Below are positions 52,709 through 55,354 of a stretch of DNA of 64,000 bases, in pieces; position 1 is the first letter of the stretch; every line of letters begins with the position of its first letter. The notes under the pieces are model-generated. The model saw only the letters and a list, made by a program, of their open reading frames with translations. It did no database searches and was not told where the DNA came from. The position numbers and the translations under genes are program-made. Source of the stretch: Escherichia coli. Lineage in GTDB: Bacteria; Pseudomonadota; Gammaproteobacteria; Enterobacterales; Enterobacteriaceae. Location: assembly GCF_024502345.1 (NCBI RefSeq), contig NZ_JALDNN010000001.1; one strand, 5' to 3'.

Positions 52709-53797
52709 TCACGGCAGGCGGTGGCGGGCTTGATAATAAGCCTGCCAGTGAGCTTCTTTATGTGTGGCGACACGCTGTTCGAAGTAACGGCGCAGACGAG
52801 CGCGATCTTCTTCGTTATCTTTGACGATGGTTCCGGCAATACAGTCCACCAGATCGGCTGGCTCACCTGCGCGATTCGCTAAAAACCAGGCGCGGACGCC
52901 CACAGCGTGGGCCACGTTCACGGCTTCAGCGGTGGACATAATCGCTGTTAGTGTATCCATTGACGTTTTCTTTTCGCCGTTGGCACGCAGATCGCGGAAG
53001 GTGCGGACCAGTAACTCCAGTACCGCGTCAGGCACTTTATGCGGAATACCGCTATGGGCCAGCAAACGCGCCGAAGCACTGGCGACAAGCTCCAGCTCCT
53101 GGGCGAAATCCATAATCGGAAAGACAGTTTCAAAATCGAAGCGACGCTTTAGCGCAGCACTCATTTCATTGACGCCGCGATCGCGGGTATTGGCAGTGGC
53201 AATAATATTAAAGCCTTCTCGCGCATAGAGCTGACTGGCTTCACCAGTGAGTTCCGGCACCGTCATCACCCTGTCAGAAAGCATACCTAACAGACAGTCT
53301 TGCACTTCCAGCGGTGTACGCGTTATCTCTTCAAAACGGACGATTTTGCCGTCGCGCATTCCCTGGTAAAGCGGGGCAGGGACCAGCGCTTCCGTTGATG
53401 GACCATGATTGATAAGCAGGGCGTAGTTCCAGCCGTACTTGATTTGATCTTCGGTAGTAGATGCGCCGCCCTGGATGGTTAACCCGGCATCGCCGCTAAT
53501 AGAGGTTGCCAGTAATTCAGACAGGAGAGATTTTGCGGTGCCAGGTTCCCCCACCAACATCAAACCGCGTCCGGTGGCAAGAGTGACTAACATACGTTCG
53601 ACAGCGGAGGGACTAATCACCACTTTACGGCTAATATTTTGCGCGCTATCGCCAAGGATAAAAGCACGGGCCGCAGGCAAACTTAACTGCCAACCGGGCG
53701 GGCAAGGTGCGTTATCATTTTGTTTTAATTTTGCCAGTTCATCGGCGTATAACACAGCAGCAGGCGGACGCTGCAGATGATTATTCTGCGGTGACAT
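52709..53797 (-). CDS. yehL: MoxR-like AAA+ ATPase (362 aa from MSPQNNH start)
   Basis: ORF track (extension to 53863); Walker A GEPGTAKS and Walker B-like hhhhDE region. Confidence 0.85.
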   Translation of the reverse strand: MSPQNNHLQRPPAAVLYADELAKLKQNDNAPCPPGWQLSLPAARAFILGDSAQNISRKVVISPSAVERMLVTLATGRGLMLVGEPGTAKSLLSELLATSISGDAGLTIQGGASTTEDQIKYGWNYALLINHGPSTEALVPAPLYQGMRDGKIVRFEEITRTPLEVQDCLLGMLSDRVMTVPELTGEASQLYAREGFNIIATANTRDRGVNEMSAALKRRFDFETVFPIMDFAQELELVASASARLLAHSGIPHKVPDAVLELLVRTFRDLRANGEKKTSMDTLTAIMSTAEAVNVAHAVGVRAWFLANRAGEPADLVDCIAGTIVKDNEEDRARLRRYFEQRVATHKEAHWQAYYQARHRLP

Positions 53798-53908
53798 ATA
53801 TTCATCCCTGAAATGTATTAATGAAATAAACGATATTTTACGCGCAATAAATGTTTGGCGCATTAGTTGTTTGAGCGAAAAATATCTGGAAAGCAGATCA
53901 CAGTAAAT

Positions 53909-53991
53909 AAAAAAACCTGCTGGTGAGGCAGGTTCTTTTATTTACTATTTTCAGGCCTAACACCACAGCCTGTGCAACATCGTGTTCCAAC
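53909..53991 (-). ncRNA. orzP: Predicted ~80-nt divergent small RNA (OrzO/OrzP-like antitoxin RNA), copy A
   Basis: Minus-strand promoter (-35 TTGCAA 54021-54026, 17-bp spacer, -10 TATAAT 53998-54003); minus-strand intrinsic terminator (stem ACCTGC/GCAGGT then U7) at 53909-53934; 5' region repeats leader sequence at 54138-54157. Confidence 0.5.
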
Positions 53992-54020
53992 GAACGAATT
54001 ATAACCACGGCTGGACCCCG

Positions 54021-54048
54021 TTGCAATTAAGATAATGAGATTTATAAT
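54021..54048 (+). promoter_or_regulatory. Sigma70 promoter of peptide gene copy A (-35 TTGCAA, 16-bp spacer, -10 TATAAT); -35 shared with the divergent sRNA promoter
   Basis: Hexamers read directly; predicted TSS near 54056 gives a ~174-nt leader. Confidence 0.6.
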
Positions 54049-54229
54049 CCTGACTGTTGGGACGTTGCGCCGGATCGAACCTATTTCAAGTCCTGGCTAC
54101 CGGACGGGGGGTGCTGCAGGTAGTGCCCTGATCCGGAGTGCAACATCGTGGTCCAACATACGTAAACCAGTATCGACAGGCAGTGTAAGGGTAAGGTGCT
54201 GGTGTTGCGCTCCTTAATAAGGAGAGCGG

Positions 54230-54319
54230 ATGGACTCGCTGACACAAAAGTTAACCGTGCTCATTGCTGTACTGGAGCTATTAGTGGCTCTGTTACGGTT
54301 GATTGATTTGTTGAAGTAA
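54230..54319 (+). CDS. zorP: 29-aa hydrophobic peptide MDSLTQKLTVLIAVLELLVALLRLIDLLK (type I toxin candidate, ZorO/ZorP-like), copy A
   Basis: ATG with AAGGAG SD 7 nt upstream; single predicted TM helix; sequence as I recall ZorO-family toxins; symbol O versus P uncertain. Confidence 0.7.
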   Translation: MDSLTQKLTVLIAVLELLVALLRLIDLLK

Positions 54320-54341
54320 CGGGCAAATTGAAACGCATCTA

Positions 54342-54366
54342 AGGGGGAAAACCGCTTCCCCCTTTA
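54342..54366 (+). terminator. Terminator of peptide gene copy A
   Basis: AGGGGGA-loop-TCCCCCT followed by TTAATAAAAT. Confidence 0.55.
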
Positions 54367-54518
54367 ATAAAATGATTACTGTTTTTATTAATTCATCATA
54401 TAACTCATTTTTATTTATAAATTCATCGATTTTATATTCAACGCACCATTTGACCGGGATGTGAATATTTATGTTGGGCTATTGGCAAAAAATATCTGGA
54501 AAGTAGATCGCAGAAAAT

Positions 54519-54599
54519 AAAAAAACCTGCTGGTGAGGCAGGTTCTTTTATTTACTACAGTGACGCTAACTTGCTGATTGTGCAACATTTCGTACCAAC
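54519..54599 (-). ncRNA. orzO: Predicted ~80-nt divergent small RNA, copy B
   Basis: Minus-strand -10 TATAAT (54606-54611) and shared -35 TTGCAA (54629-54634); terminator hairpin plus U7 at 54519-54543; 18-nt complementarity (one G-U) to leader at 54749-54766. Confidence 0.5.
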
Positions 54600-54628
54600 G
54601 AATAAATTATATCCATATCCACACTCCA

Positions 54629-54656
54629 TTGCAATTCAGTGAGTGAGATTTATAAT
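54629..54656 (+). promoter_or_regulatory. Sigma70 promoter of peptide gene copy B (-35 TTGCAA, 16 bp, -10 TATAAT)
   Basis: Read directly; same geometry as copy A. Confidence 0.6.
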
Positions 54657-54837
54657 CCTGCCCGTTGGGAGGTTGTGCCGGATCGGACCAATTTTAAGTC
54701 CTGGCTGCCGGACGGGTGGTGCCGCAGGCGGTGCCCTGATCCGGAGAGCAACGTTTCGTACCAACATACGTAAACCAGTATCAACAGGCAGTGTAAGGGT
54801 AAGGTGCTGGTGTTGCGCTCCTTAATAAGGAGAGCGG

Positions 54838-54927
54838 ATGGACACGCTGACACAAAAGTTAACCGTGCTCATTGCCGTACTGGAGTTATTAGTGGCTCTG
54901 TTACGGTTGATTGATTTGTTGAAGTAA
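54838..54927 (+). CDS. zorO: 29-aa hydrophobic peptide MDTLTQKLTVLIAVLELLVALLRLIDLLK (type I toxin candidate), copy B
   Basis: ATG with AAGGAG SD; differs from copy A by S3T only. Confidence 0.7.
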   Translation: MDTLTQKLTVLIAVLELLVALLRLIDLLK

Positions 54928-54949
54928 CGGGCAAATTGAAACGCATCTA

Positions 54950-54974
54950 AGGGGGAATACCGTTTCCCCCTTTA
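54950..54974 (+). terminator. Terminator of peptide gene copy B
   Basis: AGGGGGAA-loop-TTCCCCCT then TTTAAG. Confidence 0.5.
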
Positions 54975-54982
54975 AGAAAGCT

Positions 54983-55036
54983 ATACTCGTCATACTTCAA
55001 GTTGCATGTGCTGCGACTTTAATTATCTAGAGTATA
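54983..55036. repeat. Truncated (short-form) ERIC element: left and right termini without the central part
   Basis: TATACTCGTCATACTTCAAGTTGCATGTGCTGCG + ACTTTAATTATCTAGAGTATA; compare full copy at 23437-23563. Confidence 0.7.
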
Positions 55037-55354
55037 TTATTCTATTTCTTGGTTGAATATATTCTGTAGTTCACGATTAAAAATTGCTATTACAGTTTCA
55101 GGTGATTCACCTCGTAATTTCCGCTCATCAATACACTCATCTCTTATATAAATCAACGCATCATTTATTAGCGGGTCAGCATCTTCTCGATCACGTTGAT
55201 GAAATGTTGGATGTAGCCGGAATCGCTCCAGTCGATAGACGGAACCTGTAAATAATTCAGAGCATTTATGGATCTCAAGTCTGAAGGAAAACGGATCTTC
55301 AGGTACAGGGACCTCATAATCGTAAATAGCAACTAGCTCTTTTTGCACGATCAT
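55037..55354 (-). CDS. yehK: Uncharacterised small protein, 105 aa
   Basis: ORF track; synteny between yehL and yehI. Confidence 0.7.
   Translation of the reverse strand: MIVQKELVAIYDYEVPVPEDPFSFRLEIHKCSELFTGSVYRLERFRLHPTFHQRDREDADPLINDALIYIRDECIDERKLRGESPETVIAIFNRELQNIFNQEIE

What the first reader, a model, noticed from the sequence alone, without database searches (positions are those of the whole stretch)
53998..54048. Back-to-back promoters sharing one palindromic -35 hexamer (TTGCAA)
TTGCAA is its own reverse complement. It sits 16 bp upstream of TATAAT on the plus strand (peptide mRNA) and 17 bp upstream of TATAAT on the minus strand (sRNA). The same geometry recurs in unit B at 54606-54656. 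RNA polymerase cannot occupy both promoters at once, so toxin and antitoxin transcription would be mutually exclusive.
Basis: seen in the sequence. Interest (0 to 1): 0.6.

Follow-up and report, generated by a model that had tools for sequence, protein, structure and literature searches.

The report
zor-orz toxin-antitoxin shared promoter core
This is the published promoter region of the E. coli zor-orz toxin-antitoxin genes, where toxin mRNA and antitoxin RNA start back to back from one shared -35 box; that the two promoters compete for polymerase is plausible but untested.

Summary
ATTATA-17-TTGCAA-16-TATAAT lies at 53998-54048 and again at 54606-54656. It does not occur in shuffled sequence.

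The locus is the known tandem type I toxin-antitoxin pair zorP-orzP (unit A) and zorO-orzO (unit B) of E. coli O157:H7, between yehL and yehK. Both sRNAs match Rfam OrzO-P. Both 29-residue peptides match the published ZorP and ZorO.

The published transcript ends fit the two TATAAT boxes. The zor start lies 8 nt after its box and the orz start 7 nt after its box, so the two starts are 65 bp apart. A 2024 survey already lists TTGCAA and TATAAT as the -35 and -10 of both genes. Only one TTGCAA lies between the two -10 boxes.

In ten variants from four Escherichia species the three hexamers and the 17/16 spacing never change, although the spacers diverge.

Steric exclusion of two polymerases on one -35 is a sound inference. 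It is the known mechanism called promoter competition. No published experiment tests it here. Its effect scales with promoter occupancy, and both RNAs coexist in cultures. "Mutually exclusive transcription" is therefore overstated.

The feature is known. The hypothesis is modest but testable.

The parts
53908..53991 (-). orzP antitoxin sRNA (84 nt), including its terminator hairpin 53914-53934 and U-tract
   Evidence: Rfam OrzO-P match at 99.9 bits over 53909-53984. The 5' end is set at G53991, 7 nt after the -10 and the first base of the complementarity to zorP. In the identical K-12 copy a Term-seq 3' end lies at 2204485, which gives 84 nt. The fold shows a terminal hairpin.
53998..54003 (-). 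orzP -10 hexamer (TATAAT on the minus strand)
   Evidence: Invariant in all intact variants. Published as the orz -10, conserved in 99.8% of loci.
54021..54026 (.). Shared palindromic -35 hexamer TTGCAA of unit A
   Evidence: 17 bp from the orzP -10 and 16 bp from the zorP -10. It is the only TTGCAA between the two -10 boxes. Published as the -35 of both genes, with identical conservation figures.
54043..54048 (+). zorP -10 hexamer TATAAT
   Evidence: Published as 100% conserved.
54056..54229 (+). zorP 5' UTR (174 nt), with the OrzP target site at 54138-54158
   Evidence: +1 is placed by analogy with zorO (174-nt UTR). The target lies 72-92 nt upstream of the ATG, as published. The cognate duplex is the best of the four pairings.
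54230..54319 (+). zorP ORF, 29 aa, MDSLTQKLTVLIAVLELLVALLRLIDLLK
   Evidence: ORF list. ZorP is ZorO with T3S.
54341..54365 (+). Putative zorP mRNA terminator hairpin (AAGGGGGAA...TTCCCCCTT)
   Evidence: Read from the sequence. Conserved in unit B. The consensus terminator scan did not call it because the T run is short.
54518..54599 (-). orzO antitoxin sRNA (82 nt), including its terminator hairpin 54524-54544
   Evidence: Rfam OrzO-P match at 88.8 bits over 54519-54592. The 18 nt ending at 54599 are complementary to zorO 54748-54765. This matches the published statement that the first 18 nt of OrzO pair with zorO.
54606..54611 (-). orzO -10 hexamer
54629..54634 (.). Shared palindromic -35 hexamer TTGCAA of unit B
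54651..54656 (+). zorO -10 hexamer
54664..54837 (+). zorO 5' UTR (174 nt), with the OrzO target at 54746-54766 and the RBS AAGGAG at 54827-54832
   Evidence: The published RBS at +164..+169 and the 174-nt UTR place +1 at G54664.
54838..54927 (+). zorO ORF, 29 aa, MDTLTQKLTVLIAVLELLVALLRLIDLLK
54949..54973 (+). Putative zorO mRNA terminator hairpin

Best explanation
The 51-bp segment is the shared core promoter of a zor-orz type I toxin-antitoxin unit. Unit A is zorP-orzP. The copy at 54606-54656 is zorO-orzO.

Two sigma-70 promoters stand back to back. Each has its own perfect -10, and both use the single palindromic TTGCAA as their -35. Transcription starts 65 bp apart and runs outwards, so the two RNAs do not overlap.

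The 82-84-nt Orz sRNA acts in trans. Its first 18-20 nt pair with the zor 5' UTR about 80-100 nt downstream of the zor start.

Both polymerases need the same 6 bp for sigma region 4. One DNA copy can therefore hold only one initiating polymerase at a time. This is promoter competition.

The expected consequence is a reduction of each promoter's firing by roughly the fraction of time the other orientation occupies the site. It is not an on/off switch.

Sequence features suggest the antitoxin side is favoured. It has the optimal 17-bp spacer, a more A+T-rich upstream flank and a less G+C-rich discriminator. The toxin side has a 16-bp spacer and the discriminator CCTGACT or CCTGCCC. Competition would then add a modest transcriptional bias towards antitoxin, on top of the established post-transcriptional controls (5' UTR structure, processing, Orz pairing).

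What is shown: the identity of the locus, the hexamers and their spacing, their conservation, and agreement with published transcript ends. What is inferred: steric exclusion, the direction of the bias and any regulatory effect.
For: Identity:
- Rfam OrzO-P matches.
- Zor ORFs.
- yehL and yehK/yehI flanks.
- Published descriptions of the locus.

Promoter assignment:
- The scan finds exactly these four sites in 1.5 kb.
- Published UTR length and RBS numbering put the zorO +1 8 nt after its -10.
- Published pairing of the first 18 nt of OrzO puts the orzO +1 7 nt after its -10.
- sRNA lengths of 82-84 nt agree with the roughly 85-nt northern band and with a Term-seq 3' end.
- The survey of 2,439 loci lists TTGCAA and TATAAT for both genes.

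Constraint. In ten distinct variants from E. coli, E. whittamii and two unnamed Escherichia species, none of the 18 hexamer columns varies in the nine intact ones, against 20 of 33 spacer columns (Fisher p about 1e-5). The 17/16 spacing never changes.

TTGCAA works as a -35 elsewhere. K-12 agrA and agrB have TTGCAA, a 17-bp spacer and TAGCAT or TAGTAT upstream of their annotated starts.

Mechanism class:
- Promoter competition is the accepted interference mechanism for overlapping promoters.
- It has been shown experimentally at bidirectional promoters that share a -10, when one direction is strong.
- It has been proposed for the adjacent -35 hexamers of mtrR/mtrCDE.
Against: - There is no experiment on the native zor/orz promoters. 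All functional work used heterologous promoters or whole-locus clones.
- The -35 assignments in the literature are predictions. Only the start sites were mapped.
- Five natural bidirectional promoters showed no competition at basal activity, so the effect here could be negligible.
- Start sites of both RNAs were mapped in wild-type EDL933 RNA.
- About 30% of E. coli, including K-12, keep the same core with no toxin gene. Conservation of the arrangement therefore does not require a toxin-control role.
- The variants compared are close relatives, so the conservation test is not phylogenetically independent.
Confidence: 0.6

Rival explanations
1. Compact but independent promoters. Both use TTGCAA, but occupancy is low enough that neither affects the other. 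Sharing the hexamer is an economy of a small, densely packed locus and has no regulatory role.
For: Natural bidirectional promoters show no steric competition at basal activity. The orz-only loci keep the same core without a toxin. Control of zor is already explained post-transcriptionally.
Against: Both promoters are close to consensus (perfect -10, TTG in the -35), and the sRNA is abundant. Occupancy is therefore unlikely to be very low, at least on the orz side.
Confidence: 0.3
2. Only one promoter really uses TTGCAA. The other relies on its perfect -10 and other contacts, so nothing is shared.
For: The -35 boxes are predicted, not tested by mutation. A perfect -10 can reduce the need for a -35 (established knowledge; describes compensation by the spacer).
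Against: Both distances (17 and 16 bp) are invariant while both spacers change by substitution. An indel occurs just downstream of one zor -10 but never inside a spacer. Even so, polymerase bound at either promoter would still cover the hexamer.
Confidence: 0.1
3. Positive coupling. Each departing polymerase leaves negative supercoils behind it, which help open the other promoter 65 bp away. The two promoters then stimulate rather than exclude each other.
For: This follows from established knowledge of the twin-domain model and of divergent promoters such as ilvY/ilvC. That is recalled from memory and was not tested here. The geometry (divergent, 65 bp) fits.
Against: There is no evidence at this locus. 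It does not remove the steric clash during initiation. The two effects could coexist.
Confidence: 0.1
4. The palindrome is a binding site for a dimeric regulator that controls both promoters at once.
For: TTGCAA is a perfect palindrome and is invariant.
Against: The palindrome does not extend beyond 6 bp in unit A, and reaches only 8 bp in unit B. The flanks vary between variants. No regulator of zor/orz transcription is reported in the papers read.
Confidence: 0.05

Closest known systems
zorO-orzO / zorP-orzP type I toxin-antitoxin locus of E. coli O157:H7 EDL933 (Fozo 2010; Wen 2014, 2017; the 2024 mSystems survey)
   Same: This is the same locus. It has the same flanking genes, the same 29-aa toxins, the same sRNAs (Rfam RF02083), the same 174-nt UTR and the same published -35 TTGCAA and -10 TATAAT.
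   Different: Nothing in the sequence differs. The papers I could read list the hexamers but do not remark that one hexamer serves both promoters, and do not test interference.
Other divergent type I toxin-antitoxin loci of E. coli: tisB/istR, shoB/ohsC, dinQ/agrB
   Same: The sRNA is encoded divergently, does not overlap the toxin mRNA, and pairs through its 5' end with a long toxin 5' UTR. agrA and agrB also use TTGCAA as their -35.
   Different: Their promoters do not share a -35. The published shoB promoter (GTGACC/TAAAAT) lies about 70 bp from the ohsC -35. The annotated istR-1 start lies about 150 bp from the tisAB promoter, and the istR-2 -35 lies near it but is separate. The TTGCAA of agrA is only 14 bp from the nearest minus-strand -10-like hexamer, which is too close for a shared promoter.
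Bidirectional promoters in the sense of Warman and Grainger (shared, symmetric -10; starts 10-23 bp apart)
   Same: One symmetric promoter element is read in both orientations, and two polymerases cannot bind at once. Competition depends on promoter strength.
   Different: Here the shared element is the -35, there are two separate -10 boxes, and the starts are 65 bp apart. Those authors exclude separate divergent promoters from their class.
Overlapping divergent promoters subject to promoter competition, for example mtrR/mtrCDE of Neisseria gonorrhoeae
   Same: The promoters are back to back with adjacent or overlapping -35 hexamers. Mutations that weaken one promoter raise the other, which has been interpreted as a shift of polymerase between them. 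The mechanism is classified as promoter competition.
   Different: That pair also has a repressor (MtrR) binding in the region, and its hexamers are adjacent rather than identical. No reciprocal mutation data exist for zor/orz.

Membership tests
zor-orz type I toxin-antitoxin locus | An Orz sRNA matching Rfam RF02083 above the gathering score | tested here: met
   99.9 and 88.8 bits against a gathering score of 60.
zor-orz type I toxin-antitoxin locus | A 29-aa hydrophobic Zor ORF with the published ZorO or ZorP sequence | tested here: met
   The ORFs at 54230-54319 and 54838-54927 differ only at T3S, as published.
zor-orz type I toxin-antitoxin locus | A divergent, non-overlapping sRNA whose 5' end has 18-21 nt complementary to the zor 5' UTR | tested here: met
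   Direct repeats 53972-53991 / 54138-54157 and 54582-54599 / 54748-54765. Cognate duplexes are the most stable. This matches.
zor-orz type I toxin-antitoxin locus | Location between yehK/yehI and yehL | tested here: met
   Flanking ORFs in the window and annotation of homologous loci.
zor-orz type I toxin-antitoxin locus | Toxicity of Zor and rescue by Orz | not testable with these tools
   Shown experimentally for EDL933 in the literature.
Sigma-70 promoter (each of the four) | A -10 hexamer 6-8 nt upstream of a mapped start, with a -35-like hexamer 16-18 bp further upstream | tested here: met
   for the hexamers. Starts are derived from published numbering. The primer-extension figure itself was not available.
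Sigma-70 promoter (each of the four) | Loss of transcription when the hexamers are mutated | not testable with these tools
   No such experiment was found.
Bidirectional promoter (shared -10) | Divergent starts on either side of, or within, one shared -10, typically 10-23 bp apart | tested here: not met
   There are two separate -10 boxes 39 bp apart and the starts are 65 bp apart.
Overlapping promoters with promoter competition | Core elements of two promoters overlap, so that two initiation complexes would clash | tested here: met
   The same 6 bp serve as the -35 of both. The clash itself is inferred from how sigma region 4 binds the -35 (established knowledge).
Overlapping promoters with promoter competition | Weakening one promoter raises the other in cis | not testable with these tools
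   No data. A natural IS1 insertion in the orz -10 exists (L003) but has no expression data.

The most novel reading that the evidence does not exclude
The shared palindromic -35 acts as a per-chromosome stochastic switch. Each binding event commits the site to toxin or to antitoxin transcription. This would produce anticorrelated bursts and tune cell-to-cell variation in the toxin:antitoxin ratio. [quoted passage not shown] It would also be a distinct -35-sharing class of bidirectional promoter.
Probability: 0.15. Interest if true: 0.6.

Novelty: already known. Interest (0 to 1): 0.25.

Why it matters
The locus, its transcripts and its promoter hexamers are published, so the finding adds no new element.

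What remains open is whether sharing one -35 couples toxin and antitoxin transcription. If it does, zor-orz would be a natural, near-consensus test case for promoter competition through a shared -35. That geometry lies outside the recently studied class that shares a -10. It would also add a transcriptional layer to a system thought to be controlled after transcription.

The test is cheap: a few point mutations on a 200-bp fragment. The likely effect is modest.

Tried and rejected
- Chance was rejected by shuffles.
- I looked for the same geometry in the three other divergent type I loci of K-12 and did not find it.
- I looked for genome-wide start-site data to check both promoters independently:
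  - Thomason 2015 is not held.
  - The Cappable-seq supplements have no entry near the K-12 coordinates, in either coordinate version.
  - The Adams 2021 supplements gave only the OrzP 3' end.
  - The supplement of Fozo 2010 with the primer-extension figure is not held.
- Bogati 2022 (J Bacteriol), which may describe orzO deletions with native promoters, is not held.
- The 2024 survey supplement held as text contains no hexamer variants, so I could not see what the 0.6% non-TTGCAA loci carry.
- Phrase searches for "shared" or "overlapping -35" gave almost nothing relevant.
- A larger palindrome or regulator site around TTGCAA was considered and rejected, because the flanks are not symmetric and they vary.
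- An extended -10 (TGn) is absent from all four promoters.
- I did not scan the genome collection for the exact composite pattern, because chance matches in A+T-rich genomes would swamp it. I anchored that one scan on the orz terminator instead.
- The first version of the conservation set was selected with the hexamers themselves. I checked that every unit found by independent anchors (BLAST match or terminator) carried the core, so no unit was filtered out.

Full report
**What is in the sequence**

At 53998-54048 the plus strand reads ATTATA, 17 bp, TTGCAA, 16 bp, TATAAT. At 54606-54656 the same arrangement recurs.

The consensus scan of 53700-55200 finds four promoter-like sites. They are exactly these: two on each strand, each matching 10 of 12 positions with a perfect -10, and each pair using one TTGCAA.

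The composite pattern, allowing 16-18 bp gaps, occurs twice in the 64-kb window and never in 100 dinucleotide-preserving shuffles.

With a looser rule (any two divergent sites of at least 9/12 that share a -35), the window holds 43 promoter-like sites and only these two shared pairs. There were none in 100 shuffles.

The two copies belong to a tandem duplication with a 608-bp period whose units are 93% identical. They count as one ancestral event.

TTGCAA is the only hexamer with TTG on both strands in the same register.

**What the locus is**

The minus-strand transcripts match Rfam OrzO-P at 99.9 and 88.8 bits, against a gathering score of 60. Each ends in a strong terminator hairpin.

The plus-strand ORFs at 54230-54319 and 54838-54927 encode MDSLTQKLTVLIAVLELLVALLRLIDLLK and MDTLTQKLTVLIAVLELLVALLRLIDLLK. 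These are ZorP and ZorO.

The flanking ORFs are yehL on the left and yehK and yehI on the right.

This is therefore the tandem zorP-orzP (unit A) and zorO-orzO (unit B) type I toxin-antitoxin locus described in E. coli O157:H7 EDL933. A segment next to it is 100% identical to an O157:H7 genome.

**Do the promoters fit the mapped transcripts?**

Start sites of both mRNAs and both sRNAs were mapped by primer extension in 2010. The figure itself is not available to me.

Published numbering fixes the starts all the same:
- **zorO.** It has a 174-nt 5' UTR with its RBS at +164 to +169. AAGGAG lies at 54827-54832, so +1 is G54664, 8 nt after the TATAAT. By analogy the zorP +1 is G54056.
- **OrzO.** Its first 18 nt are the pairing region. 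The 18-nt complementarity ends at 54599, which is 7 nt after the minus-strand TATAAT. The equivalent position in unit A is 53991.
- **sRNA length.** The sRNAs are then 82-84 nt. This agrees with the roughly 85-nt northern band and with a Term-seq 3' end in the identical K-12 copy.

Cognate sRNA-mRNA duplexes are more stable than non-cognate ones.

The two starts in each unit are 65 bp apart and the RNAs do not overlap.

**Is it already known?**

A 2024 survey of 2,439 full and 656 orz-only loci lists "-35 (TTGCAA)" and "-10 (TATAAT)" for both zor and orz. The conservation figure for the -35 is identical in both columns.

Only one TTGCAA lies between the two -10 boxes, so the published -35 of both genes is the same hexamer.

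The 2024 survey has no occurrence of "bidirectional" or "overlapping promoter" and uses "palindromic" only about ohsC. I found no remark on the sharing, and no test of interference, in the text of the other zor-orz papers I read.

Functional work used PBAD and PLlacO-1, or whole-locus clones on pBR322.

**Evidence for constraint**

I collected ten distinct variants:
- the two units of the window;
- E. coli variants, including a third type;
- the K-12 orz-only locus;
- one orz-only locus with IS1 inserted in the orz -10;
- four units from E. whittamii and two unnamed Escherichia species. These were found with the orz terminator as an anchor that is independent of the promoter.

Every intact unit has the three hexamers and the 17/16 spacing.

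In the nine intact variants, none of the 18 hexamer columns varies, against 20 of 33 spacer columns (Fisher p about 1e-5). The sequences are close relatives, so this is a footprint rather than an independent-sample test.

Between units A and B the two spacers are among the most divergent parts of the repeat.

**Comparison with related loci**

The three other divergent type I loci of K-12 do not share a -35:
- **shoB/ohsC.** The published shoB promoter lies about 70 bp from that of ohsC.
- **tisAB/istR.** The annotated istR-1 start lies about 150 bp from the tisAB promoter, and the istR-2 -35 lies near it but is separate.
- **dinQ/agrA.** The minus-strand -10-like hexamer nearest to the agrA TTGCAA is only 14 bp away.

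agrA and agrB do use TTGCAA with a 17-bp spacer upstream of their annotated starts. This shows that the hexamer serves as a -35 in E. coli.

**How it most likely works**

That both promoters use the hexamer is likely but not proven by mutation.

If they do, two sigma region 4 domains would need the same major groove of a 6-bp palindrome. Each polymerase would also cover the other promoter's spacer. This follows from established knowledge of how sigma binds the -35 and from polymerase footprints of roughly -55 to +20.

One template can then hold only one initiating polymerase. This is promoter competition, the accepted interference mechanism for overlapping promoters.

Once a polymerase escapes it moves away from the shared site. 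The interference equals the fraction of time the other orientation occupies the site. This is my inference from a simple three-state occupancy argument.

Experiments on bidirectional promoters that share a -10 show the same dependence. There was no effect at basal activity. There was clear repression of one direction when the other was made strong. Those authors do not include separate divergent promoters in their class.

For mtrR/mtrCDE, with adjacent -35 hexamers, a shift of polymerase between the promoters has been proposed.

At zor-orz the antitoxin side looks favoured. It has a 17-bp rather than a 16-bp spacer, a more A+T-rich upstream flank and a less G+C-rich discriminator. This is suggestive only.

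**Verdict on the interpretation**

The gene assignments and the geometry are right. The steric argument is reasonable.

"Mutually exclusive transcription" overstates it:
- exclusion is momentary and applies per template;
- start sites of both RNAs were mapped in wild-type EDL933 RNA;
- the size of any effect is unknown;
- about 30% of E. coli keep the same core without a toxin gene.

Rival readings are no effective competition, use of the hexamer by only one promoter, positive coupling through supercoiling, and a regulator site. None is excluded.

**Novelty and interest**

The feature is already known. The mechanism proposed belongs to a known kind. The specific hypothesis appears not to have been tested and is easy to test.

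Interest is low to moderate.

Noticed in passing
window 54695-54727 (also 54087-54119) compared with L006 881-913 (K-12 tisB leader): The zor 5' UTR and the tisB leader share near-identical blocks. TAAGTCCTGGCTG..ACGGGTGGTGCCG begins right at the processing sites (+29 in zorO, +42 in tisB). The local alignment scores 40, against a shuffle mean of 16.7 and a maximum of 30 (z = 10.6). Further blocks lie downstream. The literature calls these loci non-homologous but similarly organised. The tisB and shoB leaders also score above shuffles (z = 6.3).
   Followed up: partly
L003 801-830 (E. coli S1-INA-02-A, orz-only locus): An IS1 element is inserted at the orz -10 and removes it, along with the orz gene. 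TTGCAA, the zor -10 and the zor stub remain. This is a natural knockout of one of the two promoters.
   Followed up: no
L007 6346-6396 (K-12 MG1655, about 2,204,345-2,204,395): The K-12 orz-only locus keeps the complete shared core. Its zor promoter now points at the 3' end of yehK, with only about 30 nt of zor UTR left. If active, it would make a transcript antisense to yehK.
   Followed up: no
window 53914-53934 and 54524-54544: The orz terminator hairpin is also called as a terminator on the plus strand (tail CTTTTATTT). In unit B it lies between the end of zorP and the orzO/zorO promoters. It could shield unit B from read-through out of unit A.
   Followed up: no
window 53984 and 54592: The Rfam OrzO-P model starts 7 nt downstream of the 5' end implied by the published 18-nt pairing and by the -10 position. 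The family model therefore seems to lack the first 7 nt of the sRNA, which are part of the pairing region.
   Followed up: partly
L011 1028-1056 and 1259-1287 (K-12 agrA, agrB): Both antitoxin sRNA promoters of the dinQ locus use TTGCAA as their -35, with a 17-bp spacer. This is the same hexamer and spacing as orz.
   Followed up: partly
window 54966-55040: The 75 bases after the zorO terminator, which run into the end of yehK, are a dispersed repeat. The median is 5 copies per E. coli genome and the maximum 10. There is a weak partial match to Rfam isrH (20.8 bits).
   Followed up: partly
window 54004-54007 / 54037-54042 and the equivalent positions in unit B: Within the otherwise variable spacers, a few bases next to each -10 are nearly invariant across variants: (A/T)CCA beside the orz -10 and GAGATT beside the zor -10. 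The TT just after TTGCAA is invariant too. The meaning of these conserved bases is unknown.
   Followed up: no
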